From Macrostomum lignano (lineage: Eukaryota): DNA of 64,000 nt. The position numbers were made by a program, and so were the translations under genes. Shown piece after piece: positions 3,645 through 64,000 of the stretch (position 1 is the stretch's first letter; every line of letters starts with the position of its first letter). The DNA is taken from assembly GCA_002269645.1 (NCBI GenBank), contig NIVC01001299.1:30804-94803 (forward strand), in the 5' to 3' direction. A model generated the notes under the pieces. It was not told the DNA's origin, searched no databases, and saw only the letters and a program-made list of their open reading frames with translations.

Positions 3645-4496
3645 TGTGACAGTTTTATGACCTCCCCCCTATCTCCAAAATCTTTTCCTGCCTGGTACGT
3701 AATACCCCATCATAAATCGTTTTTCTCTGCTGCGCGCTATACCCCAATTTCTCGTCCAATCACAGCGCGACGACTGACGGGTGACGTCATCAGGGCTGCT
3801 CGGTAACGGAGGTCAAGGACAAGTCACGGCTTTCAAAATCACGCATCACGCTTACGTGATCGCGTGACGCGTGATCTCAGGGCTATAAATAAGAGCTGTT
3901 TTGAGCTCTGAGAGGCAACGTTCTATGTTCACAGACCGTTTCCTTCCCCTTTTGTTTCCTTTTCCCCCCTTTGGAGCTGTAACAACCGTTCGGAGCCCGT
4001 TCTCCCTTTTCGGTGCTGAGCTAAACTTCCCTTGGCTTTGACCTCCTGACGCGTCTCATCTGGACGGAGGTCGTCCGTGACTGCAGCCGCCGCCATGACC
4101 ATCCTACGACCACGCAGGCCAAACAGCCCCTGGCCGTCGGCCGCGTCTGGAAGGTCTTGCTGAGGATCAGAGCTAAGTGGAAGATTACATAGTATGAGCC
4201 GAATTATCACGAGTGAGCTCTAGGACCTGCATTTCCCCAGCCAATACAGCATCGAACCCATCTATGTATAGGAGGAAAAAAATTAAGATGGCGTTATCTA
4301 TTATCCATTTTTGGAATCCTGGGGCTCAAGGAGGGAATTGTAGTCTAAAACCTCTCACGAGCTAAAAGAACCCTTCTCTATTTAAAAGTCCTCATTTCCA
4401 GCACTGACATAGACAGCGGTCCTTGTATGCCTCGTATACAGTCCCTTAGTCGGCCATTTCTAGTACAGTTGGGTTCAAGAATCCTCGTCTGTTACA
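3645..4496 (+). mobile_element. LTR-like dispersed repeat, copy 1 (uninterrupted)
   Basis: Clear homology of 3760-4470 to 49710-50235 plus 60420-60870. Putative termini TGTGACAG...CTGTTACA are a 7/8 inverted match. No TSD, PBS or PPT found, so the LTR identity is tentative. Confidence 0.5.
3756..3889 (+). promoter_or_regulatory. Pol II promoter-like motif cluster within the LTR-like repeat
   Basis: CCAAT 3756-3760, TGACGTCA (CRE) 3782-3789, CACG/CGTG-rich tract, TATAAA 3884-3889. CRE and TATA are conserved in the second copy. Confidence 0.45.
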
Positions 4497-6223: not shown

Positions 6224-13257
<7,034 letters not shown>

Positions 13258-28877: not shown

Positions 28878-29623
28878 GAGCTGCTGGTATATACAACACG
28901 AATTCATTGAAAATCGCTTTACGTAAATTAAGACTGCATCGGAACACGAAATTTATCCTTGAAAACCAGGACGCTATGGGGACACATACTACTAATACGA
29001 GTACTACTCAAGCTTTGCCCCTCGTTTGCGTCGCATTTGTACAAGCGTAATTTATGTTGGCGGAGGAACGAGAGGCAGAGAGAGAGGGAGACAGCGAAGG
29101 GGAGAGGGGAGCGGACGCAGAGCCTAGGTGGCACTGGGAGAGGAGGAGAGCCCCAGCGGAAGCTCATTGTCACGCTCCGCTGGGTGGCAACGCCAGTTCT
29201 GGTGACTCTTTGCTTCGATAAGCGACCAGACGGCGAGTTTGCATGCGAGCTTGTGCGTGTGCGTGTGTGTGAGCGCGTGTTTGTGTGTGTCTTTGCTAGA
29301 AGCAAGGAGAAAGGCTGCGAGAGAGGAGGTTGAGGGCGACAGCAATCCAGTGTCCACAAGGCCTAGGTGAAGTCTGCTGCGCAAGAGACTAAAGCCTAGG
29401 CTCTCACTATTGGCTGAGCTTAACTCAGTCAAATCCTCAAACTTTCGGGCAGGAAAGTGTGAGGTTGGAGCAGCCGTCGGATGGAAGCATCGCTTCCCCT
29501 TTAAGGTGCTTTTCTTCTGTCTACGATACAGCGTTCTTAAAATCATTATGCTTCCCTACTCAATTCTGTAGATCCATCGTGAGTCTGCATGGACCATCAG
29601 AGACAGACAGGTCGGACAATCGA

Positions 29624-42900: not shown

Positions 42901-45900
42901 CTAGCCGAAATGTGCTAGCCAAAATCTGCTAGCCGAAGTTTGCTAGCCGAAATGTGCTAGCCGAAATCTGCTAACCGAAGTTTGCTAGCCGAAATGTGCT
43001 AGCCGAAATCTGCTAACCGAAGTTTGCTAGCTGAAATGTGCTAGCCAAAATGTGCTAACCAAAGTTTGCTAGCCGAAATGTGCTAGCCGAAATCTGCTAG
43101 ACAAAATCTGCTAGCTGAAGTTTGCTAGACAAAATCTGCTAGCTGAAGTTTGCTAGCAGGAATTTTGCTAGCGAGGATTTGCTAGCAAGGACTTGCTAGC
43201 GAGGACTTGCTAGCAGAAATCTGCCAGCGATAATCTAACCAAAACCAGCAAATAGCAACTTTTTCATGATATGCAATGGAGTGCAACAGCTGCTATATAC
43301 GGGTATTATATAATACTCATTAAAATAATATTGCCATTACGTAGTTTCCACCTGCATTTGTTTTGAGAGTGTTAAACCTCATTTTGCTGTTTATAAAAAA
43401 AGATATAATAAAGGTAATATTGTTCGAGTTGATAATAAAAAATGTTTTGTTTCAAAAATCATTTAATTGCGATCCAATTTCCTGGTTTAGTTATTCATTT
43501 TTTTTAATGTGGCATTTCATCTCCTCAAAAATCACTACCTTTACAAAGACTAGTTAGGTCGGAACGTAAGCATAAACAATTAATTATGGGTCTAAAGAAT
43601 CAAACCTTTTCTTCAAGTTTGTTGGCTCTGTTGTTTTGTTTGCTCGCTCTTGGTAGTCAGAGTAAATTAAAAAGGCAAACTGTTGTGGGGACGACTTAAT
43701 CTGGACAATTTAATCTGCCACCTAGCCTTTGCCGTGGGTTCTCGTACATGTACGTGTTAAAATGCAATCAGTAGATAATGTCATAGCCAAAAAGAAAATA
43801 AGATTTAGGTTTTAATGTAGGTGGATTGAAAAGTTCATATACAAGCTATTGAATAAAGTAAATATATTACATCCATGATCACAGGGTAAGAGCTTGTGGG
43901 CCATACCTGCATAGAGTTTTTGCTTGTACAGAGTGCCATAAGTGATGGAAAATATCTATACATTAACAATACATATAGCTATAGTAAATTGTACCTTGGA
44001 CATACATGTATCTAGCTATAGATACTATACACCAACATGTGTGTTATTGTATGCTAAAGTACTGTATATGCTAAAACTGCACTTGGAAATTGTCAAAATC
44101 ATTTATAATTTTTTGTTCTATTTTACTCGTAGACATTTGATAATATTTTAGCATTATCAGCTGTAAGGCTGTAGTTCAAGTAGCTCAGGCAGCTATAGTT
44201 CAGGTAGTTAAATTTAAACTTATCTATACACACAACTTTTAGTCTTAATGGCTGGTAGTGGCAGTATATGGTATATAAGTTATATATTTACTTCTACAAA
44301 TCAAAGCAGCTCAAATCAGAATCAAAACATAGCAAATAACATGCAACAGCTACAAGAGCAAGGCAGCTAGCAAAATCTTTGCTAGCAAACTTTGGCTAGC
44401 AGATTTTGGCTAGCAGATTTTGGCTAGCAGATTTTGGCTAGCAAACTTTGGCTAGCAGATTTTGTCTAGCAGATTTCGGCTAGCAGTTTTGGCTGGCAAA
44501 CTTCGGCTAACAGATTTTGGCAAGCAAATTTTTCACTAGCAAACTTTGGCTAGCAGATCTCGTACTCCCACACCATACTATCACCTACCAGACTATTCCA
44601 CACTAGATACCATTTACCAAAATGCTTATTTGCTATAATCAGAACACTTGACTAAGTCCAACTAAGACAAATAAGCTAATATTTTACTACATAGATAATT
44701 ACTTAATTTTCCTAATTTCAAAAGATAGCTAATCTTTCTTTATTTAACTTAAAATTCAAATTAAAGCATACTTTAAAAAAGTATGTATAAAAATACAATT
44801 TATAGTTACATAAGAACTAGGTAACTTTTTTGGTAATAGTCTACTTTGGTAATAGCCACTCCAAAAACAAATGATGACAAATTTAGTAACAACCAACTCA
44901 GTAACAACCACTTTTGTAACAAGTGAAAAAATTGGTATACTTGTACAATTAGTATATACTTGTACATATGTTCAACTTATTTAAAAGTTTAAAACTTTAA
45001 CCAATATACTTTATTTCTAGATGCATTAGATACATGTAGTAGAAATATCTTATAATTGACCAAATATTGAGTATATTAGAATACTTGATTTAGTGACTTG
45101 AAGTTATAGTATTGTTAGGTTGGTGCTTAGCCATAATGGGCTTGCAGTCAGAGCACCCATCATTACACTTTTCCCCCTTCAGTTGTTTACATAGTTGTGT
45201 ACACCCCATATACCCCACTCCCTGTCTGGGCCAGCTGGCTTTGGCTGGCTGTGCCCTCTATCACACCTTTCACACCCTTAAATTGCTATTTTTCTCTAAT
45301 CATGACCCTATCATGTTCTGTAAGTTATGAATTTTGAAATTCTGGTTAGCTGGGCCTGGGGTACCAATATCCCGAGGCTTAACCAACTAGTGAAAATATA
45401 TATATGTTGGCATATGTGGCAGTATAGGAGACCATCCTTTGTGCCAATCTAGACTCTATATACTATTGCCAGTAACTCACCAAAAATCAGTATATATTTA
45501 AAAGCATTCACTGTCAGAATTGGAGTATACTCTTATTGCTACCACTGTCACTGCTATGTCAAGTCAAAAAGTGAGTTGTGTCTCTTGTTTATTGCAGGTC
45601 TGGCTGGGTTCAAATTGTGCCATATAGACAGTTTAACCAAGTCTCATGATGAGATCACATATGGAGTCTAAAGTCAATCCAGCCAATTGATTGACATCAT
45701 CCATGTGCTTGTCCACTAGATTAACTAAGGCTATAATCTGGCCTTTCACAACAATATCTACTTTTTTCTTCATTGATTACTTCAACTTCAACTAAAATAT
45801 TATAGGTTTTTTATATTACTGATTTCAAAACAAGAATCATTTTGAAGCTTTAAATATTTTCTGTTCCATTTTTTAGAATTGGTTCTAAAACTATGATCCA

Positions 45901-48900
45901 ATTATCAGAATTTGGTTTAAAAACTTTTCTAAATGAATTGTTATACTTCTATGGAAAGAACAAGACAACTTTGAATTCTGAAATAACATTTCAAACATTT
46001 CAAAAAAATACAAAGAACTCAAAAGCATAGGCCATATTTTAGATAAAAGTTTTTATATTTTAAGAAGTAATATATGCTTGTAATAAAAGAATAGAAAAAT
46101 TTGACACTTTTCATTTTCCTACTGATTCTGGTTCTGGAATTGGAATTATTCTAGTTCAGGAACCAATCTTTGTGAAAAGCCTAAATGTTTCATTTATCTA
46201 ATATAACATTAATATTACAATAATGTTAATGTCAATAATGTTAATAATGTTAATATAACATTAATATAGAAATTCTACATTGATGCCCACAAAAAGTAAT
46301 GTTTATATTATTGTCATTAATGCAAGAAATTTCTGGGCATCAATGTCAAAAATTCCAGGCTCTGTGTTATTACATAGAATGCAGTTGAAATGTCTATGGC
46401 CATTCTTTCTTTTGATTTGCGAGCTCTTGGTCATAGACGAAGTTTTGATGGTCCAGGTCTAGAGATGGACAGTAAAACTGAAGGAGCTAGAAAAATGCTA
46501 AATATATATTTTTTCAAATCTGTCAGGACTAAGGTGTGCTTGAGTTCTGAAAATGATCAACCATTTAATTAATTATTCCAATCTGCCAGGAGAAATGGTT
46601 TCCGGTATGTTGACCAAAGAGCTGGCGTGGATATTATCCGAGTCAAACAGCCAGTATTTGGAGGAACTGAGCAAAGAATTTGGGCACAAGATAGAATCAG
46701 AAGAGATTCTCGACATTCTGGAGGACGTGATGCAAGAGTTAAATCAGCTTGAACGAGATGGAATACCAGACTCCTCTGCCTGGCAGATGGAGGACAATGT
46801 GAGCCGCTTCAAGACTTTTCTGGAAAAAATGAAACTGTCAATAGATCTGCTGCGAATTCCAAAGTTGATTCTGGCTAATTATTTGCATTTCTTCTATTCA
46901 ACACTGCAAACAAAGGACGAGCAGTACTATGCTCTAGCAAGTCTCATCTGCATTAGAGCCGGACTGCATCGCTTCTTCTGTCTCAGTCGCCTAGAGATTA
47001 ACATTATTGCGGACATGGCCTTCGCAAATGCGAATCAGATGTACAAGCTAGCCAATCAACCAAAATCGCGAGATGGATTTGCTGTGATCAAGAAAAGTGA
47101 CCTCCAGAAGATCATGAGCTACTTTGACAGATCATGTGGTGACATACTCTATAAAGAGGTCATGTTCCATTTAATTTATTATTTTGGACTGCGTGGACAG
47201 GAGAACCTACCAATACTGACGAGGGAGAGTTTTGTGTTTCAAGTGGATTCTGAGTTCTGAAGGCCGTGACTATGCCACTCTGAACTATGACCTTCTTAGT
47301 AAGAATTCTAAGGCATCTCTAAAGAAGACCGAGTTCCAGGATGCAAAGCTAGCTTGTATGTATTTGGATTCTGAGAATTGGAATTGCCCTGTTGCTGCCT
47401 TGAAGATGTACCTACAGTGCCTAGCGGATCTACACATTGAATCACTTTTTCCGAAGCCGTGCGTCAATGTTTCGAAAGGTATGTCCAGTAAGCGATGGTA
47501 CTATGTCTCCCGTACACTGGGCAAGAACATAATTGATCAACTCATGAGTCAATTGTCAATAAATCTTGGTCTCTCTAAACACTATACGAATCATTGCATT
47601 TGTGTAACACACGTCACAGTTTTGAAAGAGCATAGATTTTTGAATGCAGCGATTGCTAGCAGCACCGGTCATAAGAATCTGGAAAGTGTTGAACAATACT
47701 CTTGAATGAGGAGACGCTAACTTTCAAGCGATGTCAGAGACGCTGAGCGTTGATGCCAGCGCATCGACTGTGTGCATTAAACATGTGGGCCCTATTGGTG
47801 TGGTGTCGATAAAGGAAGCAGTAGCTACGTGCAAAGATTGTCTTGCTGAAGGACAAGTTAAGCAGGCTGTGCCAGCTCCATCGGTCAGTGTGAATTTCTC
47901 TAGAACATTTTGAAATTGTACGTTTGATTTCTATAGCCTGAAAGACTAATTTAATTTAACTAACTGATTGTCTCTCTTTGCATGCTTATAAGTGCATAAA
48001 CTTCTACTCTTATTTGTTGGCCACTGTTTCATACTGTTGTTCTATTTTGCTCTATTACTGAAATAGAAAATACCATAGACAATTCAAGGCACAAATTGCC
48101 ACATTGACGCCCAAAAAAGGGACGCTTAAGTTTGCAAAAATTAATGACAATATACAATTTCTTTTCTAGGATTTATATTTTTTATAAAGTTAATATATAC
48201 ATTTAAATAAATTATAATATTGTTTAACTAGAAAATTAAACTATATATAGCAATACAATATTTGACATATTAATTAATAAACTAACAGTGGCTAAAGTCA
48301 ATTGCCATAAAGATATAGTGTTGACAAATGTAAATCTGATTTTTGACTAAAGTCATCATTATTTATGTTATTGAACTTGAAGTGGTAGTTACCAAAATGG
48401 CTATTATTGAAATGGATTGTATTCACTTTTTGAGATAGGGATACAATACAATAGCATTTTGACTTTAAAACGCTATTGTCCTTAGATTAGACCTGAATTT
48501 GATTTTGAATCCTAATGCTAGCAAAAAACCTATAGGCCTATAAGAACAAGTTTTTCTATATATATTACCATTAAGGATACTATTAAAAATCTTGACTTTC
48601 TAAATTGCATCTTAAAATTGGACCTTAGTTGCAAATATACATTATAGCACTAAAAAACTCAAGGCAAACTGGCAAAGAAACTTTATACTTTTGAATAGGG
48701 CCAGCTATATATGATTTACTGCCATGATTCTTTTTAAAGTTTTATAAATAAAATAAATAATGCTAGGCCTACCCAAGTTGATCAATTGTTTTAAACTATG
48801 TTTGAGTAAAATTGCAAAAAATAAAAACTTAAACTACAGAATGAAAATGAGTTTGATACCTTTGGCCTCAGGGCTCAGGCTAAGCCAAAAGCTAAGACCC

Positions 48901-48995: not shown

Positions 48996-49728
48996 TTTGG
49001 AGTAAACAATCGACAACGGTAATTACTTTATGTTTAGAATATAATACACCTAATTCCAAACCTGCAGTGCTTTGTCACCTTTGAATCTTTGATGCTGTAA
49101 ATCGCTAGGCTAATACAATAGTTAATATATTCAATATGTCTGATTTACTCGGGACTGCAAAATCAGAGCATTAAAATTTTATTACAGCGTTGGCTTTCAG
49201 CCTTCCAGAATGAACCACAGCAATATTACAAAACAATTACTGCACTGGCCCTAAACCTTTTGAGATATTTCTACGAAAAAAATTGAGCTATAACAGCCAA
49301 TTGCACTTTACGATTTAACAAAAATTACTTACTCTTTTGACCCTTGTTTTGATGAAATTAAAATAAGTAAAATAATTTACAAATAATAATATGTATCATA
49401 TTATTTTCTTAACGATTGAATAGTGAATCTAATATAAGAAATATTCCATTTACTACGTAATTGTATGTTTTGAAGTCTATTTGATCTTGGCCTCCATTTG
49501 CTTGTTGAGCAATATGATCATGCATTCGATGTAGGCACGTCCCTGGGCTCCTCCACTAATTTTTGCGCGCCCTCCTTTCTTTCCCTGTGACTAATCATGC
49601 CTTATCGCCCACCCCACTCCCTCGCGCACCGACGACCCCACCTTAATTCAATTTTGTTTGAAATCGATCATTAAACTGTATGCATTTGGCAGTTTCTAAT
49701 TATGAACAGTCACAGCGCGGCTGACGGG

Positions 49729-49844
49729 TGACGTCATCAGGGTTGCAATTATGGTAACGGAGGTCAAGGATTTAAGTGACACGGCCTTTAATATCACGCA
49801 TCACGCTCACATGATCACGTGACGCGTGATCCCAGGGCTATAAA
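49729..49844 (+). promoter_or_regulatory. Pol II promoter-like motif cluster pointing into the palindrome
   Basis: TGACGTCA 49729-49736, CACGTG 49816-49821, TATAAA 49839-49844; CRE and TATA conserved with copy 1. Confidence 0.45.
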
Positions 49845-49958
49845 GAGATAGATTTAAGCCCTGAGCGGCAACGGTCGATCCGGCCCTGTCCGGGGGCCGG
49901 CGTTCCACGCTCCGGTCGCTTTTGATCCCCTCCCGCGTTTACTCCTGAACTTACGAGT

Positions 49959-50023
49959 CAAGGACCACTAGAAGTTACTTCTAGTGGATAATGTGAACTA
50001 GAAGTTACTTCTAGTGGTCCTTG
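49959..50023. mobile_element. 65-bp CAAGGAC-family micro-element
   Basis: TIRs CAAGGACCACTAGAAG / CTTCTAGTGGTCCTTG; exact 8-bp TSD TTACGAGT (49951-49958 / 50024-50031). Confidence 0.9.
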
Positions 50024-51989
50024 TTACGAGTCCGTTCTGCATCCCTCTTCCTCTACCGTTTCTTTTCTCACCCATTGGAAAGCTAGCTGCATGTAACTTC
50101 CCAATTGACTTTAAACCTCCCGGTCGTGTCTCGTTTGGATTGTCGATCACCCGTGACTGCAGCCGACGCCCTGACTTGCCGACGACCACCGCGCCACAAT
50201 TGCAGCCCTGCCCGTTGGCCGTGTTCTGTAAGGTATTTCTCTCTCTGATGTGTATAATCCGTTGGGTATAATCAACCCCGGTCTCCCTCCCCATATTGCT
50301 CATCATTTCCTAATTTTTCCAATCTTAACATATTTACATAATGCATAATTCTGTTTTAATAATTTCATGTAACTGAGCGGTCAAGGCCAAGTTTCAGGGC
50401 TAATTATTTAGGCCATTAGCTATTATTTTTATCTCGTTTGCTTCTGCCTGTTCAATCACTTAATTATTTACTTATGAATTGTAACTACGTAACGTGCAGA
50501 TTCTGCAGGGTTTTCAGAATTCTGACGCAAAAAACGCAAATTATACTACTATCTGAAAATGAAGTAAGTAGTATACAAAAACGCTATCCTAAGCGTGATT
50601 CAATATGTAGTTGTAATAATCCATGTGCTCATATTAATTCCATGTACATTAATCCCTATCTATCTCAAATTGTATATTAATTCCATGTACATTAATCCCT
50701 ATCTATCTCAAATTGTACATTAATCCCATGTACATTAATCCCTATCCCAAATTGTCTATCCCCAATTCTATATGTACACTTGCATTAATCTACAGTGTCA
50801 TCCCCAGCGCGCGCACACCAAAATTACAACTCGAAACCCTACTACATGTTCAATCTCATCCAAATGAGTCAACTAATTGCGTAGCTCACATCGTAATGTA
50901 TATTTCCAACGTACATTCTCAGACAGATTTGAATAATACTGGTCGGAGTCTATATGTACATTGATAGCCTCTATACTCATATCTGCTACATACCCCAAAA
51001 ATTAGGTATGTAAATTTTCACCCTCGGAGACTGTAGGTTTGAATATGTTGATATAATTTATTCAAAATCTTAAAATACACATACTTTCATATAGAGGCGG
51101 GCCTGTACAAACTCTCGCCAAGCGATGGGGTGGAGGTTGCGTCATCCAAGTCTCTCCCAAGTCTGCCCCCCAAATACAAGACTGTTGAAGCAGTGCTTTA
51201 TATTTCTATTGACAATGGGTATGATACAAGAAGCTTCGTCGCGCTTTAATTACAGTAAACCATCCCCTCGAAGCTCCTATACTGAATGCTGAATCACCCT
51301 TTAACTCGGACCATAGTCAAATTCAACCATGTTCGAAAACAGCCACCCCTCCGATGTTCACCAGACTCGTCTTCACAGCGCAGACCCATAGCAAATCGAG
51401 CTAAATTTTAAAACTCGCCCCTGTTCTCTCTGTCCCCCTTCTAAATGCCAAGGAATTTCGACCCTCTCTTCATTTTCAGTGTACAGACAGATCTTTCCAC
51501 AGCACAGACCGTATATTAAACTTCATTCAGCAAAACCCCTCTCTTCTCCGATTACGTCATCCATGCCGCCCCAGATAGCAAGAAACCAACTTTTAATGCA
51601 CACATCAACCCCGCGAATCTGAACAAATCCGAGTCCGCCAACCTCTACCTGCATTGACAAACCCCAGCTGCATCTGTCAATGTACACAGCCTATGAATCA
51701 GTGTCTCCACCGCATGCAATTCTGATTTACTTGATTCTAAACTTTGTAAATAGTATAAGTCACCCTTGCGTTATACTAGAAGTAGTGAAGTCCACAAATT
51801 TAAATACGTGAGGCTTCTCCGTAATTCAATTCTGCCTCTCCGGCTCCCCTGCCTTCTCACTTCAAGCTTTCAGACTTGGTCTTTGAGACGGTTTAATCTG
51901 TTAGAAGCAGGAATGAATCATGCACTGACCTCTCCACACAAAGTAAAGTTGGAATTTCAAACAATAAATTTGGTTATTTTGAAAGCTAA

Positions 51990-53150
51990 ATGACTAGAAA
52001 TGCGCAGTTTTTTTATAAGAAAATACAATTTTTCACAGTTTTTATGCATTTTTTACGTTAAAATGCAGACTTTATTGATCAAAATCAGTAGTTTCATCAC
52101 TAGAAACCATACTTTCAACAGCTAATTTGTCCAAATGTCGCTTTCAACTTGACCTTAGACAGCTTTGAAGCAAGAATGAATCCCACACGAACATCCACAA
52201 GCCACCCCAGAATCAACCAAAGACATGGCTATTGAAGCCTAAATTGCTAGAAATGCGCATTTTTTCATAAGAAAATACAAATTTTCACAGTTTTTACGCA
52301 TTTTTTCGTTAAAATGCAGACTTTATTGATCAAAATCAGTAGTTTCATCACTAGAAACCATACTTTCAACAGCTAATTTGTCCAAATGCCGCTTTCAACT
52401 TGGCCTTAGACAGCTTTGAAGCAAGAATGAATCCCACACGAACATCCACAAGCCACCCCAGAATCAACCAAAGACATGGCTATTGAAGCCTAAATTGCTA
52501 GAAATGAGCATTTTTTCATAAGAAAATACAAATTTTCACAGTTTTTACGCATTTTTACGTTAAAATGCAGACTTTATTGATTAAAAATCAGTAGTTTCAT
52601 CACTAAAAACCACAATTTTAACACAAAATTATCACAAATGCTACTTCTGGAACTCTGAGACAGCTTTGAGCAGGAATTATAATCGCACACGGATTACCCG
52701 AGCCAGTCCAATTTCCACTAAAGCCATGGTTTTTTAAAGCTAATTCTTAGAATTTCTCATTATTTCGTTTAATAAAGGCCTATTTTCACAGTTTTATTAT
52801 TTTCTAACGTTAAAATGCGAAATGCGAATCGATCAAACTTAGTAGTTTCATCCGAAAAGCCATAATTTCAACCGCTAATTTGTCCAAATTCTGATTTCAA
52901 AGTTGGCAAGAGACAGCTTTCGAGCAGGAATGAGTCACACACTGATCTCCATATGCACACCCCGGCCCAAGTTGGAATTCCACCCAAGACATTTTCATTG
53001 AAAGCTAAATTACTAGAAATTGCACATTTTCGTTTTAAAAAGGTCAATTTTTCACAGTTTTTACTCTTTTTAACGTTAAAATGCTGACTTTATTGAACAA
53101 AATTAATCACTTCATCAGCAGAAACCATAATTTTTACAACTTAATCGTCA
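51990..53150. repeat. About 252-bp tandem repeat in the left palindrome arm (about 5 units)
   Basis: Unit anchors CTAGAAATGCGCA-like at about 51994, 52247, 52499, 52747, 53013. Confidence 0.88.
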
Positions 53151-56100
53151 AAAATGCTGTTTCATCATTCAAATGTGTGTATTTGGTACGCGTAATACCC
53201 CTCAAGAAGTCGGGAAGGGATTATTCTTGAATATTGGGTTAAAACGTACAGTTTGCTATAAACCTAGCTATAATAATTTTAACATATACAGTCGGCGAAG
53301 CGGCCCGTTGATTATTTCGATTGACATTTAAACTGTCCCTCCCAGACCTCTCTCTCTCCTTCTGCACCCACCGAGAAAAGTGACTCATGCGGCAATCAGC
53401 TGGACAGGTTTGGTGTATTACTGAATTGGCAAAACAGCCAACACCCAATGGTCATATTAGACTCGTCTTCACAGCACAGACCCATGTAGAACAGAACCAC
53501 TCGTCCCTGTCTCTCTGACCTTACCATTTCTAACTGTCAAGGAATTCCGACCCTCCCTCTCCAATTTCAGTGTACAAACAGATATCTTCACAGCACGGAC
53601 CCATATATTGAGCCTCCTCCAACCAAAACCCTATCTTGATTACGTCATCCACCTCCCCATAGGAGCAGTTAGCAAGAAACAAAATTTTTCGATGCACATA
53701 TGAACACTGTGAACCATGCAAAATCGCACATCTACGGGTCGATTTTGATTGACAATTTAATACCTTTTGTTGATGCTGCTGTGTACAGTAGTCTTATTTC
53801 TGAAGCTCCTAGCAGTCATCTTTTAGATGTGGTGAATCAGTGTTGTTTTTGCCAACTTTACATCTTGATTCATCCTCCAAATTCTTCAACTCTGACGATA
53901 TTCAATAATTTAACCCATGCAAGTAGATTTGCCAATTCGCCAAATTAGCCAATACGAATGGGGCCAGAGGACCCACCCAAATCGAGCCCTTGTCTCTCTC
54001 AGGCCTCTCTCTCCTACACAAACCCCAGAAAAGTGACTCATGAGGCAATCAGTTTAACAGGTTCAGTATACTGAATTGGCAAAACAGCAAACACCCAATG
54101 GTCAATGGACTCGTCTTCGCAGCGCAGGCCCATTTTGAATAAAGCCAAAACACACATACCCCCCTATTCTCTGACCAAACCTTTCCATTTCTAGTTGTCA
54201 ACGAAATTCGACCGGCCTCTCTCTCAATCCCAATGTACATTTTGACGAAGCAAGCAGATCTTTTCACAGCACGGACCCAGCCTCCCCCAACCAAAGCCCT
54301 ATCTCTGATTACGTCATCTATACATCCCCATAGAAGCAGTTAGCAAGAAAAAAATTTCGATGCACATATATGAACAATGCGAACCAAGCAAATCCGCGCG
54401 TCTACCAAAGCCAACCCTACCCTGCGTGCTGTAATTGCATTTGTCAATGTACACACCCTATGAATCAGTGTCTCCTTCTTTGGAACACACGAAGGCATTA
54501 GTCAGAAAGTTTGGATGCAATTAAAAACTCTCTCGATGCTTTGCGTATAAACGAGTAATCGATTGAATCAATTGTACACTTGACACATTTAATTACGTGC
54601 TGCCATGCAACGGAAAGACAGGATAATGGGGTGGGTGGTCACGCAGCCTCATTCTCTCTTTCCTTCTGATCTTTCATTATCTATCAATCTCAGCTCTTTC
54701 CGGGGCAACTCGCGCATGTGTGCATAGTTCCTCATCAGATTTACCACATGTTCATTTACATGTGATGTACATATGCAAGTGGCAGCCGATTTAAACCTGA
54801 GAAATGGTTGAAGTACTCCCCCGACTATGACTAAATGCACGTACGTTCAGTCAAATACAGGAAAATTTGACATCCGTAGTATGAAGATGTAATCTTCACG
54901 AAAGCTTCACATGTTTATCTTTCTCTGTGGAAATGACGATAGTTTCTCAATAAAAATCTGTCATAGGCCCAATATAGCAGTTTAAATATTTTCACGAAAA
55001 TGTCGCATTCTTCCAAGAACTGATTTTTGCAAACTCTACTGTCAGTAGGAAGATGAGTTTTCATAGAGACATTTTGTAAAACATAGACTAAACTTTCAAA
55101 TCATTCGTTTACACAACCAACTGTCTATATTAATGGTGGGGTTATTATTACTTTACAGAAAAACGCATGTCCTGTGTTACGACACTGCCTAGCAACCGTA
55201 TAATTTTTGCAGGTCAAGGAGCATTAATACATGAACTAACACTCCTATTTTACATTCATTGAGAGGCGGCGGCGCGGGCGGAGGCGGCAGTAGAGACAGG
55301 GACTGTGCTGCGCACAGTCACGGTCCGGCCCCCCTCCGCCCGCTGCCTCCGCCTCTCAATGAATGTAAAATAGGAGTGTTAGTTCATGTATTAATGCTCC
55401 TTGACCTGCAAAAATTATACGGTTGCTAGGCAGTGTCGTAACACAGGACATGCGTTTTTCTGTAAAGTAATAATAACCCCACCATTAATATAGACAGTTG
55501 GTTGTGTAAACGAATGATTTGAAAGTTTAGTCTATGTTTTACAAAATGTCTCTATGAAAACTCATCTTCCTACTGACAGTAGAGTTTGCAAAAATCAGTT
55601 CTTGGAAGAATGCGACATTTTCGTGAAAATATTTAAACTGCTATATTGGGCCTATGACAGATTTTTATTGAGAAACTATCGTCATTTCCACAGAGAAAGA
55701 TAAACATGTGAAGCTTTCGTGAAGATTACATCTTCATACTACGGATGTCAAATTTTCCTGTATTTGACTGAACGTACGTGCATTTAGTCATAGTCGGGGG
55801 AGTACTTCAACCATTTCTCAGGTTTAAATCGGCTGCCACTTGCATATGTACATCACATGTAAATGAACATGTGGTAAATCTGATGAGGAACTATGCACAC
55901 ATGCGCGAGTTGCCCCGGAAAGAGCTGAGATTGATAGATAATGAAAGATCAGAAGGAAAGAGAGAATGAGGCTGCGTGACCACCCACCCCATTATCCTGT
56001 CTTTCCGTTGCATGGCAGCACGTAATTAAATGTGTCAAGTGTACAATTGATTCAATCGATTACTCGTTTATACGCAAAGCATCGAGAGAGTTTTTAATTG

Positions 56101-57469
56101 CATCCAAACTTTCTGACTAATGCCTTCGTGTGTTCCAAAGAAGGAGACACTGATTCATAGGGTGTGTACATTGACAAATGCAATTACAGCACGCAGGGTA
56201 GGGTTGGCTTTGGTAGACGCGCGGATTTGCTTGGTTCGCATTGTTCATATATGTGCATCGAAATTTTTTTCTTGCTAACTGCTTCTATGGGGATGTATAG
56301 ATGACGTAATCAGAGATAGGGCTTTGGTTGGGGGAGGCTGGGTCCGTGCTGTGAAAAGATCTGCTTGCTTCGTCAAAATGTACATTGGGATTGAGAGAGA
56401 GGCCGGTCGAATTTCGTTGACAACTAGAAATGGAAAGGTTTGGTCAGAGAATAGGGGGGTATGTGTGTTTTGGCTTTATTCAAAATGGGCCTGCGCTGCG
56501 AAGACGAGTCCATTGACCATTGGGTGTTTGCTGTTTTGCCAATTCAGTATACTGAACCTGTTAAACTGATTGCCTCATGAGTCACTTTTCTGGGTTTGTG
56601 TAGGAGAGAGAGGCCTGAGAGAGACAAGGGCTCGATTTGGGTGGGTCCTCTGGCCCCATTCGTATTGGCTAATTTGGCGAATTGGCAAATCTACTTGCAT
56701 GGGTTAAATTATTGAATATCGTCAGAGTTGAAGAATTTGGAGGATGAATCAAGATGTAAAGTTGGCAAAAACAACACTGATTCACCACATCTAAAAGATG
56801 ACTGCTAGGAGCTTCAGAAATAAGACTACTGTACACAGCAGCATCAACAAAAGGTATTAAATTGTCAATCAAAATCGACCCGTAGATGTGCGATTTTGCA
56901 TGGTTCACAGTGTTCATATGTGCATCGAAAAATTTTGTTTCTTGCTAACTGCTCCTATGGGGAGGTGGATGACGTAATCAAGATAGGGTTTTGGTTGGAG
57001 GAGGCTCAATATATGGTCCGTGCTGTGAAGATATCTGTTTGTACACTGAAATTGGAGAGGGAGGGTCGGAATTCCTTGACAGTTAGAAATGGTAAGGTCA
57101 GAGAGACAGGGACGAGTGGTTCTGTTCTACATGGGTCTGTGCTGTGAAGACGAGTCTAATATGACCATTGGGTGTTGGCTGTTTTGCCAATTCAGTAATA
57201 CACCAAACCTGTCCAGCTGATTGCCGCATGAGTCACTTTTCTCGGTGGGTGCAGAAGGAGAGAGAGAGGTCTGGGAGGGACAGTTTAAATGTCAATCGAA
57301 ATAATCAACGGGCCGCTTCGCCGACTGTATATGTTAAAATTATTATAGCTAGGTTTATAGCAAACTGTACGTTTTAACCCAATATTCAAGAATAATCCCT
57401 TCCCGACTTCTTGAGGGGTATTACGCGTACCAAATACACACATTTGAATGATGAAACAGCATTTTTGAC

Positions 57470-58875
57470 GATTAAGTTGTAAAAATTATGGTTTCTGCTG
57501 ATGAAGTGATTAATTTTGTTCAATAAAGTCAGCATTTTAACGTTAAAAAGAGTAAAAACTGTGAAAATTGACCTTTTTAAAACGAAAATGTGCAATTTCT
57601 AGTAATTTAGCTTTCAATGAAAATGTCTTGGGTGGAATTCCAACTTGGGCCGGGGTGTGCATATGGAGATCAGTGTGTGACTCATTCCTGCTCGAAAGCT
57701 GTCTCTTGCCAACTTTGAAATCAGAATTTGGACAAATTAGCGGTTGAAATTATGGCTTTTCGGATGAAACTACTAAGTTTGATCGATTCGCATTTCGCAT
57801 TTTAACGTTAGAAAATAATAAAACTGTGAAAATAGGCCTTTATTAAACGAAATAATGAGAAATTCTAAGAATTAGCTTTAAAAAACCATGGCTTTAGTGG
57901 AAATTGGACTGGCTCGGGTAATCCGTGTGCGATTATAATTCCTGCTCAAAGCTGTCTCAGAGTTCCAGAAGTAGCATTTGTGATAATTTTGTGTTAAAAT
58001 TGTGGTTTTTAGTGATGAAACTACTGATTTTTAATCAATAAAGTCTGCATTTTAACGTAAAAATGCGTAAAAACTGTGAAAATTTATATTTTCTTATGAA
58101 AAAATGCTCATTTCTAGCAATTTAGGCTTCAATAGCCATGTCTTTGGTTGATTCTGGGGTGGCTTGTGGATGTTCGTGTGGGATTCATTCTTGCTTCAAA
58201 GCTGTCTAAGGCCAAGTTGAAAGCGGCATTTGGACAAATTAGCTGTTGAAAGTATGGTTTCTAGTGATGAAACTACTGATTTTTAATCAATAAAGTCTGC
58301 ATTTTAACGAAAAAATGCGTAAAAACTGTGAAAATTTGTATTTTCTTATGAAAAAATGCGCATTTCTAGCAATTTAGGCTTCAATAGCCATGTCTTTGGT
58401 TGATTCTGGGGTGGCTTGTGGATGTTCGTGTGGGATTCATTCTTGCTTCAAAGCTGTCTAAGGCAAGTTGAAAGCGCATTTGGACAAATTAGCTGTTGAA
58501 AGTATGGTTTCTAGTGATGAAACTACTGATTTTGATCAATAAAGTCTGCATTTTAACGAAAAAATGCGTAAAAACTGTGAAAATTTGTATTTTCTTATGA
58601 AAAAATGCGCATTTCTAGCAATTTAGGCTTCAATAGCCATGTCTTTGGATGATTTTGGGCTGGCTTGTGGATGTTTGTGTGGGGTTCATTCCTGCTTAAA
58701 AGCTGTCTAAGGTCAAGTTGAAAGCGACATTTGGACAAATTAGCTGTTGAAAGTATGGTTTCTAGTGATGAAACTACTGATTTTGATCAATAAAGTCTGC
58801 ATTTTAACGTAAAAAATGCATAAAAACTGTGAAAAATTGTATTTTCTTATAAAAAAACTGCGCATTTCTAGTCAT
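57470..58875. repeat. About 252-bp tandem repeat in the right palindrome arm (about 6 units)
   Basis: Reverse anchors at about 57601, 57865, 58113, 58365, 58617, 58870; one more unit than the left arm. Confidence 0.88.
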
Positions 58876-60978
58876 TTAGCTTTCAAAATAACCAAATTTA
58901 TTGTTTGAAATTCCAACTTTACTTTGTGTGGAGAGGTCAGTGCATGATTCATTCCTGCTTCTAACAGATTAAACCGTCTCAAAGACCAAGTCTGAAAGCT
59001 TGAAGTGAGAAGGCAGGGGAGCCGGAGAGGCAGAATTGAATTACGGAGAAGCCTCACGTATTTAAATTTGTGGACTTCACTACTTCTAGTATAACGCAAG
59101 GGTGACTTATACTATTTACAAAGTTTAGAATCAAGTAAATCAGAATTGCATGCGGTGGAGACACTGATTCATAGGCTGTGTACATTGACAGATGCAGCTG
59201 GGGTTTGTCAATGCAGGTAGAGGTTGGCGGACTCGGATTTGTTCAGATTCGCGGGGTTGATGTGTGCATTAAAAGTTGGTTTCTTGCTATCTGGGCGGCA
59301 TGGATGACGTAATCGGAGAAGAGAGGGGTTTTGCTGAATGAAGTTTAATATACGGTCTGTGCTGTGGAAAGATCTGTCTGTACACTGAAAATGAAGAGAG
59401 GGTCGAAATTCCTTGGCATTTAGAAGGGGGACAGAGAGAACAGGGCGAGTTTTAAAATTTAGCTCGATTTGCTATGGGTCTGCGCTGTGAAGACGAGTCT
59501 GGTGAACATCGGAGGGGTGGCTGTTTTCGAACATGGTTGAATTTGACTATGGTCCGAGTTAAAGGGTGATTCAGCATTCAGTATAGGAGCTTCGAGGGGA
59601 TGGTTTACTGTAATTAAAGCGCGACGAAGCTTCTTGTATCATACCCATTGTCAATAGAAATATAAAGCACTGCTTCAACAGTCTTGTATTTGGGGGGCAG
59701 ACTTGGGAGAGACTTGGATGACGCAACCTCCACCCATCGCTTGGCGAGAGTTTGTACAGGCCCGCCTCTATATGAAAGTATGTGTATTTTAAGATTTTGA
59801 ATAAATTATATCAACATATTCAAACCTACAGTCTCGAGGGTGAAAATTTACATACCTAATTTTTGGGGTATGTAGCAGATATGAGTATAGAGGCTATCAA
59901 TGTACATATAGACTCCGACCAGTATTATTCAAATCTGTCTGAGAATGTACGTTGGAAATATACATTACGATGTGAGCTACGCAATTAGTTGACTCATTTG
60001 GATGAGATTGAACATGTAGTAGGGTTTCGAGTTGTAATTTTGGTGTGCGCGCGCTGGGGATGACACTGTAGATTAATGCAAGTGTACATATAGAATTGGG
60101 GATAGACAATTTGGGATAGGGATTAATGTACATGGGATTAATGTACAATTTGAGATAGATAGGGATTAATGTACATGGAATTAATATACAATTTGAGATA
60201 GATAGGGATTAATGTACATGGAATTAATATGAGCACATGGATTATTACAACTACATATTGAATCACGCTTAGGATAGCGTTTTTGTATACTACTTACTTC
60301 ATTTTCAGATAGTAGTATAATTTGCGTTTTTTGCGTCTGAAAACCCTGCAGAATCTGCACGTTACGTAGTATTGTATCAACTGTGAATAATGAGTGCGCC
60401 TGTCGCGCATGAAATCGAAGTCGAGGATCAGAGTAGTGGAAGATCACCGAGTTTAACCAAATAATCATAGCAGTAACAATACCTTTAAATAATTGTCCCC
60501 GTAGGATGTACGGAGGGTGAGGCGGATCCAATGGAGAGTCAGAGAGGAGGGTGAGGCGGAGCAACAGGAGAGTCAGAGAGGAGGGTGAGCAGGATTCGGA
60601 CGAAATTACAGCTGGCATAAACTTCTCGTACACCACAAGAGAGCTCTAGGGCCTTCACTTCCCCATCCCTATTGCATCAAACCCATTCTAGGAGGAAAAA
60701 ATTAAGATGGCGTTATCTATATCTTCCCTTGGAATCCTGGTGCTTAGGAGCTGGAATCGGTAGTAAGATCGCTCACCATCTAAAAGACCCCCCCCCTAAG
60801 CAAAATTCCTCAATTCCAGCATTGACTAGATTGTCCCTGTATGCCTCGCATAGAGCCATTTCAATATACAAGTATTACTGGCATACAGTAAAAAACTTAT
60901 TTCTAAAGGTGACAATTTCCGTGCTACACCATACATATTTACTACCTGAATTGCTAAGCAGCTTTCCTGCTCTTCTTT

Positions 60979-61018
60979 AAATTAAATAACTTGCTAAGAC
61001 AGGCAAGTTATTTAATTT
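60979..61018. repeat. Perfect 16-bp stem / 8-nt loop hairpin
   Basis: AAATTAAATAACTTGC-TAAGACAG-GCAAGTTATTTAATTT. Confidence 0.9.
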
Positions 61019-61053
61019 TTCTCTTCGAGTCTTCTCTCTTCCGACCGTCTTTA

Positions 61054-61137
61054 CGCGTGGCGAGAGCATCCAAAAATAAATCGCGTGGCGAGAGCATCCA
61101 AAAATAAATCGCGTGGCGAGAGCATCCAAAATAAATC
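61054..61137. repeat. 28-bp unit x3 (CGCGTGGCGAGAGCATCCAAAAATAAAT)
   Basis: Units start at 61054, 61082 and 61110. Confidence 0.9.
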
Positions 61138-61829
61138 AACGAATAATCAGCCCAGTGTCAAAAACTCCAGCGATTTCGCCGGCTAGACTACTTTTAAGCC
61201 CCCAAAATATTAAAAATACTGTGTACCTGTTGTACAAAAATATTATATTAATACTATATTACTTTTAGTATCTATTTTATAGCTGAATTTAGTTGAAATG
61301 TACAAATTGCCTACCTACAAAAAGTAGTTAAAAGGGCGGAACCGCCAGCTAAAAGGCCAACTAATGTCCGGAGCGAAGAGGCGGAGACGAGCGAGCGGGC
61401 GATCGAGTACAGCGAGCAGGCCCAGAGCGATTAGGGCCCGCATTTTTCAAGTATATTGTTGCGAAAATTAAAAATTTTGAGCGGCAGCAGCGCCCTCGAT
61501 CGCGTTGAGCTGAGCAACGTATATATAAAACACACGCACACTGGGATTAGGGGTGTTGAGTCAGAGCACGTACGTACAGCGCGTAAAAACAAGCACAAGT
61601 ACAAGGTCGGGCGATAAAAAGGGGGCAGCGAGGCAGGTCGCTCAGCCATTAAAAACGGCTAAAGCCCACTTGCTTTACCAGCCAATAACCGGCAATCGTC
61701 TGACATGCTGGTGCCTCATATATGGTGCAACAGCGAAGACTACGCCGCCTTTGGAGCCTCATGTCCTTGAGCCAGGCTCGGACAGATCCTCTGAAACAAT
61801 TTCCTCGGCTAGCGGCTCTGCGACTTTGT

Positions 61830-62530
61830 TGGAAGTGCTGGCCCAGCCAGCACCGAAGACCTCAATGCAGCCGCATCCGCATCAGCATCCGATGCCGATT
61901 CGACTGAGGAGGCACCTGCCAGCAATATTCAATATGATAACCCGATAAGCTATCCAATCAATGCGGACAAGTCCGGCGGCATCATCAAGCGCTTGGATGA
62001 TGTCCAGCTTGAGTACTATCCTAATATGAGGCTTCGAGCTCTATGATAGACTACTCAAGGACCTCCTGCCAGTAGTGGTGCTGGCCAATAGACCAACAGA
62101 GCAGCGCAAGGTGGTCTGGTTTGGGCCAGACTACTCTTAATCCGGTGTGTCATTAGGTGCTAATCCGAACTGGCACCCAGCCGTTGAGGACATGCGCAAC
62201 TTCCTCGAATTTAATGCCGAGTTGAATGCTCCTAAGTTTAACAGCTGCCTAATTAATTTCTATGAGACAGCTGACGACTACATCCGCGTACCATGCCGAC
62301 GACGAGGCCGAGCTGGGTCAAGATCCATGCATAGCAATGGTCTCGTTCGGTGTCGTCAGGCAATTTCTAGTACGCAATAATGCGGATCAACGCGAAGTCG
62401 CGAACTTTGACGCAAAACCCGGCTCTGTTATCATTATGGCTGGGGCCTGTCAAAGAAAGTGTAAGCACAGTGTCCCGGGTGTCGGTATCCAGGAGGGCAT
62501 CCGTATTTCGCTCACCTTTAGGGTGACGCA
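61830..62530 (+). pseudogene. Intronless decayed AlkB-family (ALKBH2/3-like) 2OG-Fe(II) dioxygenase
   Basis: Joined frames give RKVVWFGPDYS*SG...FNSCLINFYE..DDYI/YHADDEAELGQDP.IAMVSFG..RQF...GSVIIMAGACQ...KHSVP...RISLTFR. H-x-D (62292), distal H and C-terminal arginines are present; a stop at 62138-62140 and at least two frameshifts. Confidence 0.85.
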
Positions 62531-62534
62531 TCTC

Positions 62535-62581
62535 CCTTCAAGTCGTGAGTCCGACGCTCTTACCATTAAGCTACAGCCCCT
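62535..62581 (-). mobile_element. Truncated tRNA head of the same SINE family
   Basis: GTGAGTCCGACGCTCTTACCATTAAGCTACAGCCCCT matches 23825-23860. Confidence 0.7.
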
Positions 62582-63047
62582 CTAGGCAAACAATGATGCA
62601 GAGATTAATTATTTCCTATCAGCGTTTAAATGCTGAGATACCATCCTGCTCGAATGACTGTGTAGGTTGCGCGTTAAAGTGCGGCACTGGCCCGCTTCGC
62701 GTGGCATCTTTGGCACGTGCGATCGAACCGTGCCACTGCCACCCCTGCAGCCAAAATCCACTCGCGCATCGGTCCGAGAGACTCCACCGATCTTTCCACT
62801 CCAGGCCCGAGCTCGGCGTAGGCTTGAGGCTACGGGAAAATGTCCAGGCCCAGGCATTGAAACTGGTTTTCGTGTTCCATCATTTGCTGTTGTAAACAGA
62901 AGATAGTGGATAAATCAACAAATATCTGTAGTGACCTTCGCGAACTTTCCCGATTATTGTGCTATTAAATATTCTACGCTATTAACTCTATTATGCTCTA
63001 AGCTCTAATTTCTATTAAGCTCATAATATTATTTCTACACCGTTTAG

Positions 63048-63443
63048 TAGAGGTCGGACGGGATCCCGATCCCGATCCCGAAATCTCGGGATCCGAGGAA
63101 AATTGAATTCCCGCGGGACCAGAATCCCGACCCTAAAAAAGTCGAGATTCGGAACAGGTCTTTCGATTAATAATTTATAGAATTAGTGATTACTTAAAGG
63201 TATTTTGCTTCAACTTGTACGCGTTACATTATTTACTTTGTTGGTTACAAAACTTCATATCACTTTCGTTGTGTTTTACTTCTTGATCTTGACAATCTTT
63301 TCTCAATTTTGTTTAACTTTACATGGACAATACACTAAAAGACCTGATCCCGATTCCCGAATCCCGATCCCGATCCGATCCCGAGAAAAAAATTATTCCC
63401 GATCCCGATCCCGCCCGAAGATTTCAATCCCGTCCGACCTCTA
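63048..63443. mobile_element. hAT-type MITE, 396 bp
   Basis: 17-bp TIRs TAGAGGTCGGACGGGAT / ATCCCGTCCGACCTCTA; exact 8-bp TSD CCGTTTAG; subterminal GATCCC repeats. Confidence 0.92.
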
Positions 63444-64000
63444 CCGTTTAGGCATATTAAATTGTTAATTTACATGAATTCTTGTACTGTAACACTTAAT
63501 CACTATTAAGCAATACGTACATACAATTTAGTTTTTGTTTATAGCGATGCACGTTTTCCAGAACTTTCCGGAAAACCCAATTTCATTTATATATACACGA
63601 AACCAGATTTGCAATTATTTTAAGCCTTTTCAATCACTCGATTGACTCAAACTAACAGAACATTCGACTGCTACCTTTACATATCCGCTTGACTTACTTG
63701 ACTTAGCTGCAGGGTGGATACAGCGTGGAGGCGAGGGTCGCCCATTCCGCTAGCCCTGAAGGCCCGCAGACAGGCAGAGGCGTGGGGCCGGTCAGGGTGA
63801 AGATTTGATCGAGTGGTGATCAGTCACTCGAAAACTCACACTTCCAGACACTTGAGCCTGGGAACAAAATCACTGATTACTTACTGTTGCGGCTCCTCTT
63901 CTTTGTTGCGCGTGTCTGTAGAGCTCGTCTCCTTAGAGCTGTTGCCCGGGGTGGTCTTCTTGAAGTCTAAACTCAGCCGAAACGAGAGCGTAACAATAAA

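What the first reader, a model, noticed from the sequence alone, without database searches (positions are those of the whole stretch)
55261..55357. Palindrome axis is a GC-rich imperfect hairpin resembling a replicated hairpin end
Seen: between the perfect arms (ending 55269, starting 55349) lie 79 GC-rich bases that still fold. There is an 11-bp stem GCGGGCGGAGG/CCTCCGCCCGC (55274-55284/55333-55343), an asymmetric unpaired region (16 vs 13 nt), then an 8-bp stem GACTGTGC/GCACAGTC with a 3-nt loop at 55309-55311, essentially on the symmetry axis. Established: incompletely paired terminal hairpins of poxviruses and parvoviruses give such imperfect central symmetry (flip/flop forms) when replicated into dimer junctions. 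Inference: the insert may be an integrated head-to-head dimer of a ~5-kb hairpin-ended DNA, or a fold-back-primed duplication.
Basis: partly seen in the sequence, partly recalled or inferred. Interest (0 to 1): 0.75.

Follow-up and report, generated by a model that had tools for sequence, protein, structure and literature searches.

The report
Ten-kilobase palindromic transposon with hairpin centre
In a flatworm genome, a gene-less 9.9-kb mirror-image DNA element has recently jumped into place, and the GC-rich hairpin at its centre looks like the turning point of a folded-back DNA that borrows the enzymes of a virus-like transposon.

Summary
The hairpin is real: stems, loop and coordinates are as described (z -5.6). 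It is the axis of a 9,887-bp palindrome (50484-60370). The arms show 0 substitutions in 4,111 bp outside a 250-bp array, and no protein homology was found. The hairpin tip carries a seventh copy of a motif present six times in each arm (4 of 5,000 shuffles), so the centre is native to the element. The host is a Macrostomum-like flatworm. Best reading: a non-autonomous Polinton/Maverick-type element whose two arms were made by copying round the hairpin. It would be a ~4.9-kb clothespin (protein-primed end, hairpin end) whose double-stranded dimer was integrated. The insertion is shown; the helper and the snap-back replication are inferred from one copy. Poxvirus or parvovirus origin is unsupported, and the proposed flip/flop test barely discriminates. 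Precedent is protein-primed fungal plasmid derivatives; no Polinton-linked case was found in five searches.

The parts
50478..50483 (+). Left copy of 6-bp target-site duplication ATTGTA
   Evidence: chance of a 6-mer match between local flanks 2.4e-4
50484..60370 (.). Whole palindromic element, 9,887 bp, 39% GC, ends 5'-ACTACG...CGTAGT-3'
50484..55269 (+). Left arm, 4,786 bp, no protein homology found
50484..50603 (+). Terminal region with small hairpins; 7 bp at 50517-50523 are missing from the right arm
   Evidence: (fold z -2.9)
50631..50746 (+). 43-bp tandem array, 2.7 copies (mirror 60115-60230)
51310..51740 (-). Module A of three diverged ~400-bp modules; holds motif copies at 51374 and 51498
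51979..53164 (+). ~251-bp tandem array; the right arm (57992-58886 and onward) has one extra, distinct unit
53400..53760 (-). Module B; motif copies at 53470 and 53589
54060..54520 (-). Module C; motif copies at 54118 and 54265
55270..55348 (.). Imperfect GC-rich central hairpin (79 nt): 3-bp outer stem with mismatch and bulge, 11-bp stem, asymmetric 16/13 region, 8-bp stem, 3-nt loop
55299..55312 (+). Tip copy of the arm motif (GGGACTGTGCTGCG), forming the 5' side of the 8-bp stem and the loop; same orientation as the six right-arm copies
55349..60370 (+). Right arm, 5,022 bp
60371..60376 (+). Right copy of target-site duplication ATTGTA
49707..50240 (+). Left part of the interrupted host repeat (matches 3757-4161 at 73-80%)
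60634..60855 (+). Right part of the interrupted host repeat (matches 4208-4441 at 76%)

Best explanation
The hairpin is the turn-around of a gene-less, wholly palindromic mobile element that most likely parasitises a Polinton/Maverick. SHOWN: a 9,887-bp palindrome was inserted as one unit with a 6-bp duplication; its arms are identical at the substitution level outside one tandem array; its GC-rich centre is an imperfect hairpin whose tip carries the arms' repeated motif. INFERRED: (1) a helper's protein-primed polymerase starts at one end and displaces a single strand; (2) synthesis folds back at the hairpin and copies its own arm, giving a ~4.9-kb clothespin with an open origin at one end and the hairpin at the other; (3) copying round the hairpin gives the 9.9-kb duplex with two identical, integrase-ready ends; (4) the helper's retroviral-type integrase inserts it. 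This needs no nicking enzyme, explains identical arms beside a mismatched centre, and predicts that both hairpin forms arise, one from each strand. A GC-rich asymmetric centre should also hinder cruciform extrusion and so let the long palindrome persist in a chromosome (general knowledge, not tested). Whether this is a one-off defective or a standing family is open.
For: TSD of exactly 6 bp (p 2.4e-4) and flanks collinear with a paralog. 6 bp is the characteristic Polinton TSD (PMC10045372 passages; PMC8097293 passages). AC..GT tips are known in a swamp-eel Maverick, and GTGTGTGT tips in a polintovirus (PMC4061559 passages). The other 6-bp group, IS3EU/GingerRoot, has TA..TA or TG..CA ends, and Ginger1/2 have 4-5 bp TSDs and TGTNR ends; neither fits. 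Arms: 4,111 matches and 0 substitutions. Hairpin far beyond chance. The tip ranks 13th in the window for profiles built only from the six left-arm motif copies, directly after the 12 arm copies: 16.7 bits against 9.2 for the best of 108,192 outside positions; 4-6 of 5,000 composition-matched shuffles; 1 of 300 after allowing for 49 conserved windows. Protein-primed plasmids are reported to give hairpin/duplex deletion derivatives (two titles seen in reference lists).
Against: Only one copy was seen and no helper: 0 of 79 ORFs of 85 aa or more outside the element gave an integrase, polymerase, capsid or Rep family in Pfam. The tip ACTACG is only a near-repeat (5 of 6) and matches none of the three published vertebrate end motifs exactly. 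The arms (4.8-5.0 kb) far exceed the 100-1,500 bp quoted for Polinton TIRs. The arms differ by one whole, distinct 250-bp unit and a 7-bp indel, which a fresh copy-back would not give unless these arose later or in assembly. The 10-nt core of the motif also occurs once outside, at 49711. A longer centre-to-module alignment is weak: 8 of 1,000 shuffles reached it, but 1 of 10 unrelated segments scored higher. No text on Polintons in Macrostomum was found.
Confidence: 0.52

Rival explanations
1. A foldback-type, non-autonomous cut-and-paste DNA transposon (a giant MITE) moved by a DDE transposase with 6-bp TSDs. The palindrome arose once by template switching during gap repair; the modules are transposase or host-factor binding sites and the hairpin is only the scar.
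For: Modular arms with internal tandem arrays and no genes recall Drosophila FB/Galileo and sea-urchin TU elements (recalled). The TSD shows transposition but not replication. A repeated motif in long arms is what transposase binding sites look like.
Against: The ends fit neither IS3EU/GingerRoot nor Ginger. Cut-and-paste gives no built-in reason for zero arm divergence beside a strongly mismatched yet well-folding centre, other than youth. Foldback TSD lengths that I recall are 7-10 bp. hAT subgroups with 6-bp TSDs are recalled and were not tested.
Confidence: 0.27
2. An integrated dimer bridge of a parvovirus-like or poxvirus-like hairpin-ended DNA that is resolved by a nicking or resolving enzyme. 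The tip motif would be the initiator's binding site.
For: Imperfect, asymmetric, GC-rich hairpin on the axis. A seven-fold repeated motif, one copy at the tip. Terminal palindromes have been proposed as replication primers for some endogenous virophages and PLVs (bioRxiv 10.64898/2026.07.28.741278 passages).
Against: No Rep/NS1 or capsid homology in the element ORFs tested. Precise outer ends with a 6-bp TSD are not how such viruses integrate (recalled). In the cited preprint the palindromes sit at the outer ends next to the TSD, not at the centre.
Confidence: 0.08
3. The TSD-flanked element is real but its interior is a sequencing or assembly artefact: a fold-back read or a collapse that replaced a longer internal region.
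For: All 8 indels outside the array (seven single bases in runs, one of 7 bp) are losses from the downstream arm. That pattern resembles missed bases after inverted-duplicate junctions in nanopore reads (PMC7229812 abstract and passages). Reads could not be inspected.
Against: A fold-back chimera cannot return to collinear unique flank with a TSD. The right arm holds a distinct extra repeat unit that the left lacks. The two sides of the 16/13 region are different sequences, not one with missing bases, and the tip matches the arm motif.
Confidence: 0.09
4. An in-place chromosomal fold-back duplication (break-induced, or inverted-repeat amplification at an origin) primed at a pre-existing hairpin.
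For: A short imperfect inverted repeat at the axis is the usual junction of such events (recalled).
Against: The arm has no match in the rest of the window, the symmetry stops at the TSD, and the host repeat continues collinearly across the insert.
Confidence: 0.03

Closest known systems
Polinton/Maverick elements (non-autonomous derivatives)
   Same: 6-bp TSD, long terminal inverted repeats, short-period tips; AC..GT tips have a precedent.
   Different: No polymerase, integrase, ATPase, protease or capsid gene. The inverted repeat is the whole element (4.8-5.0 kb arms against 0.1-1.5 kb). The tip hexamer is not one of the published motifs. There is a central hairpin.
Hairpin/duplex deletion derivatives of protein-primed linear plasmids (yeast pGKL1 derivative, Kikuchi 1985; Neurospora kalilo derivative, Vierula and Bertrand 1992)
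   Same: A palindromic duplex equivalent to the dimer of a molecule with one hairpin end and one protein-primed end (titles seen; details recalled).
   Different: Those are cytoplasmic or mitochondrial fungal plasmids; the yeast one is titled a perfect hairpin. Here the element is nuclear, animal, integrated with a 6-bp TSD, and the hairpin is imperfect and carries an element motif.
Foldback transposons (Drosophila FB, Galileo, Tetris; sea-urchin TU)
   Same: Gene-less, long modular inverted arms with internal tandem arrays, and a TSD (recalled).
   Different: TSD of 6 bp rather than the 7-10 bp recalled; arms about 5 kb with no substitutions; spacer reduced to a 79-nt structured hairpin.
Parvovirus dimer bridges and poxvirus concatemer junctions
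   Same: Imperfect central symmetry that folds into two reverse-complement hairpins.
   Different: No viral genes found; GC-rich, whereas poxvirus hairpins are AT-rich (recalled); transposon-type outer ends.

Membership tests
Polinton/Maverick | 6-bp target-site duplication | tested here: met
   ATTGTA on both sides; p 2.4e-4
Polinton/Maverick | Terminal inverted repeats of about 100-1,500 bp | tested here: inconclusive
   Inverted repeats are present but 4.8-5.0 kb long and make up the whole element (range)
Polinton/Maverick | Short tandem end motif (AGT)2, (AG)3 or (AC)3A | tested here: inconclusive
   ACTACG is a 3-bp near-repeat with an AC start but no exact match; the motifs come from vertebrate elements only
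Polinton/Maverick | Encodes protein-primed polymerase, RVE integrase, ATPase, protease, capsids | tested here: not met
   Longest ORF inside is 107 aa. 27 element ORFs in Pfam gave one sub-threshold hit; 0 of 26 in PHROGs. So it is not an autonomous member.
Polinton/Maverick | Ends shared with an autonomous Polinton of the same genome (criterion for a non-autonomous member) | not testable with these tools
   No eukaryotic genome collection was available; no helper in the window
Polinton/Maverick | Protein-primed extrachromosomal replication | not testable with these tools
   Needs bench work
IS3EU/GingerRoot | 6-bp TSD with TA..TA or TG..CA termini | tested here: not met
   TSD fits, termini are AC..GT
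Ginger1/Ginger2 | 4-5 bp TSD and TGTNR termini | tested here: not met
Parvoviridae / Poxviridae | Imperfect terminal hairpin appearing as a central palindrome in dimers | tested here: met
   (structural likeness only)
Parvoviridae / Poxviridae | Rep/NS1 and capsid genes, or poxviral genes | tested here: not met
Parvoviridae / Poxviridae | Enzymatic resolution giving flip and flop hairpin ends | not testable with these tools
   One copy, no reads; both forms are inherent in any duplex palindrome
Foldback transposons | Gene-less long modular inverted arms with tandem subrepeats and a TSD | tested here: met
   a descriptive class, defined from recall
Foldback transposons | Mobilised by a P or Mutator transposase with 7-10 bp TSD | tested here: not met
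   TSD is exactly 6 bp; the comparison lengths are recalled

The most novel reading that the evidence does not exclude
This is one copy of a standing family of non-coding 'clothespin' satellites of Polintons: ~4.9-kb DNAs with a protein-primed origin at one end and an evolved, motif-bearing hairpin telomere at the other. They would alternate between a snap-back monomer and an integrating 9.9-kb palindromic dimer. Such elements would be invisible to gene-based or standard TIR-based Polinton screens and would preserve a footprint of how Polintons replicate.
Probability: 0.3. Interest if true: 0.82.

Novelty: new variant of a known kind. Interest (0 to 1): 0.6.

Why it matters
Protein-primed replication of Polintons is inferred from gene content, and the terminal protein had not been identified experimentally (PMC4405056 passages). 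A very young, fully palindromic derivative would show that these elements pass through displaced single strands in an animal. It would also give a simple physical assay: a snap-back ~4.9-kb form and a ~9.9-kb form in an easily kept flatworm group. It offers a route by which 10-kb near-perfect palindromes enter and survive in animal chromosomes. Screens that require core genes or a long loop between the repeats (15 kb minimum as stated in PMC11131425) would miss such elements. If it is only a foldback MITE, it is still an unusually large one with an unassigned end type.

Tried and rejected
DNA searches: left arm plus centre against 72,556 plasmid and 50,697 phage records, no match. Exact hairpin pattern and exact 26-nt terminus in GTDB genomes, 0 and 0. 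These are prokaryotic collections, so absence says little. Viral and metagenome contigs and any eukaryotic genome stayed unchecked, so copy number, empty allele and helper are open. Rfam over 49000-62000: 3 matches, all far below gathering score, generic miRNA hairpins; no ribozyme. Coding remnants: 27 of the 119 stop-to-stop ORFs of 40 aa or more overlapping the element (many are mirror duplicates) were scanned in Pfam, giving one sub-threshold zinc-finger hit, E 0.005; 26 in PHROGs, none. The 61-aa ORF next to the hairpin gave 0 hits in 1.84 billion proteins and a best Atlas score of 0.76; the 65-aa ORF gave none among 12 candidates. The idea that the 5' side of the centre is a deleted arm module is not relied on. 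Blind motif counting put the tip motif among the top arm families at two of five settings, behind an AT-rich TGTACA family, and not in the printed top 14 at the other three. The paralog does not give an exact empty site: the target lies in a ~290-bp stretch that the paralog lacks. A longer TSD was checked by eye and rejected. A library hairpin adapter as the centre was rejected from recall and from the TSD. Kikuchi 1985 was not held. Three supplementary files of PMC5730564 had no Maverick, Polinton, foldback or palindrome. Supplements of the other papers were not examined and may list further end motifs; bioRxiv supplements were closed; Repbase was unavailable.

Full report
Observation. The finding is accurate. 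Alignment of the left arm with the reverse complement of the right puts the first mismatch at 55270/55348, leaving 79 nt. These are 76% GC, against 39% on average and 62% at most in arm windows. They fold at -32 kcal/mol, z -5.59, 0 of 200 shuffles, better than all 6,376 other windows tested. The 11-bp and 8-bp stems and the 3-nt loop are where stated. The tip stem is unlikely even given the outer stem: 14 of 20,000 shuffles. The 16/13-nt region is partly paired in the model.

What the hairpin belongs to. The symmetry extends to 50484 and 60370 (9,887 bp; arms 4,786 and 5,022 bp) and stops abruptly. ATTGTA lies immediately outside both ends as a direct repeat; random 6-mers from the local flanks match with probability 2.4e-4. 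Sequence left of the element matches 3757-4161 and sequence right of it matches 4208-4441, in order and orientation (73-80% identity). The palindrome therefore sits inside one copy of a dispersed host repeat. The exact target lies in about 290 bp that the paralog lacks, so this is collinearity, not a base-resolved empty site. The arm has no match elsewhere in the window. Together these show a transposed insertion and exclude an in-place fold-back of the chromosome. The host is a flatworm: an MFS exon at 29459-30730 has its best hit in Macrostomum lignano at 78%, and the other named hits among 39 are parasitic flatworms at 46-67%.

The arms. Outside the 250-bp array they share 4,111 matched bases with 0 substitutions and 14 gap bases, all missing from the right arm: seven single bases in runs and one 7-bp piece. 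The one-sidedness suggests sequencing error, as described for the arm downstream of inverted junctions in nanopore reads (PMC7229812, abstract and passages). The right arm has one extra array unit that differs from its neighbours, and there are two small differences within the array. The arms consist of a 43-bp array, a 251-bp array and three diverged ~400-bp modules. The longest internal ORF is 107 aa. No credible protein match was found: 27 ORFs in Pfam with one sub-threshold hit, 0 of 26 in PHROGs, and none for the two ORFs nearest the axis. Rfam gave only sub-threshold generic hairpins.

A link between centre and arms. Each module holds two copies of a motif like GGGTCTGTGCTGTGAAGA, six per arm. 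Weight matrices of 18 and 14 nt built from the six left-arm copies alone rank the hairpin tip (55299-55312) 13th in the whole window, directly after the 12 arm copies; for the 18-nt matrix the tip scores 16.7 bits against 9.2 for the best of 108,192 outside positions. Composition-matched shuffles of the centre reach this in 6 and 4 of 5,000. Allowing for all 49 conserved 14-nt module windows, 1 of 300 does. Against this, I noticed the motif by eye first; the bare 10-nt core occurs once outside the element and in 227 of 20,000 shuffles; and a longer alignment was not convincing. On the plus strand the tip copy is the first of seven same-facing copies, and it forms one side and the loop of the terminal stem. 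This is what one expects if one arm plus the hairpin is the parental sequence and the other arm its copy.

Mechanism. A 6-bp duplication is characteristic of Polintons; IS3EU/GingerRoot share it but end in TA..TA or TG..CA (PMC10045372 passages). Ginger elements have 4-5 bp and TGTNR (PMC2836005 passages). Vertebrate Mavericks end in (AGT)2, (AG)3 or (AC)3A (PMC8097293 passages). ACTACG resembles these in its AC start and 3-bp near-repeat but equals none. Polintons encode a protein-primed polymerase and an RVE integrase and are thought to replicate by protein priming (PMC4405056 passages). From general knowledge of strand-displacement replicons, a nascent or displaced strand that folds back at an internal hairpin yields a molecule with one open origin and one hairpin end, and its replication yields a palindrome with two origins. 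Such derivatives are reported for yeast and Neurospora protein-primed plasmids; I saw only their titles in the reference lists of PMC4443254 and PMC11071308, and the Kikuchi paper was not held. I therefore read the element as the integrated duplex of such a clothespin, moved in trans by a Polinton (confidence 0.52). The insertion, arm identity, hairpin and motif are shown; the helper, protein priming and snap-back are inferred. No helper gene occurs among 79 ORFs of 85 aa or more in the rest of the window. The main rival is a giant foldback MITE of an unidentified cut-and-paste family (0.27). Then come an artefactual interior (0.09), a rolling-hairpin virus dimer (0.08) and an in-place duplication (0.03).

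On flip/flop. The two strands of the centre fold into reverse-complement hairpins of similar stability. Any duplex copy contains both, and with identical arms its orientation in the chromosome is undefined. Finding 'both forms' would therefore prove little unless phased to arm-specific markers.

Novelty. Searches for Polinton with palindrome, hairpin, snap-back, foldback or non-autonomous terms and for Macrostomum or flatworm with Polinton/Maverick listed no description of a fully palindromic, TSD-flanked derivative. These were judged from listings, plus passages of PMC6431247, PMC10748475, PMC11131425 and PMC4061559. The nearest was a preprint on 52-nt palindromes at the outer ends of virophages and PLVs (passages). 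Subscription journals and Repbase were not searchable, so a catalogued family cannot be excluded. It is not filed as a Polinton, since the coding criterion is not met and shared ends could not be tested; the claim is that it works like a Polinton satellite. Verdict: real, more defined than first reported, a new variant of known kinds, resting on one copy. Interest 0.6; the boldest reading, a standing family of hairpin-telomere satellites, has probability 0.3 and interest 0.82.

Noticed in passing
window 49959-50023: 65-bp palindrome built of two self-complementary 19-mers, lying in a ~74-bp stretch absent from the paralogous repeat near 3975; probably a small hairpin insertion.
   Followed up: partly
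window 3757-4441 and 49707-60855: Two diverged copies (73-80%) of an unidentified non-coding dispersed repeat; the second hosts the palindrome and at least three other extra segments.
   Followed up: partly
window 46544-47705: Two overlapping ORFs in different frames (238 and 161 aa), the second with a weak tyrosine-recombinase match (PF00589, E 0.01, below cut-off); possibly a broken Crypton-like gene. Outside the TSD.
   Followed up: no
window 62141-62585: AlkB-like 2OG-Fe(II) oxygenase fragment (PF13532, E 9e-13), apparently spread over two frames.
   Followed up: no
window 11164-12279: 279 copies of TTAG, 95% pure; a telomere-like but 4-nt repeat in an internal position.
   Followed up: no
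window 41041-41667 (-): 208-aa uninterrupted mitochondrial carrier ORF (PF00153).
   Followed up: no
window 23588-23858 / 32415-32681 and 42793-43230 / 44366-44555: Older, imperfect inverted repeats (88-94%), and inverted arrays of a 14-bp unit.
   Followed up: no
window 51374-54330 (arm modules): Each module also conserves GATGACGTAATC, which resembles an ATF/CRE site (label recalled), and the hairpin stems hold GGGCGG boxes; the arms may act as enhancers.
   Followed up: no
window 62979-63440: GATCCC-rich repeats between inverted GTAGAGGTCGGACGGGAT-like ends (about 63047-63445), probably a small MITE; seen by eye.
   Followed up: no
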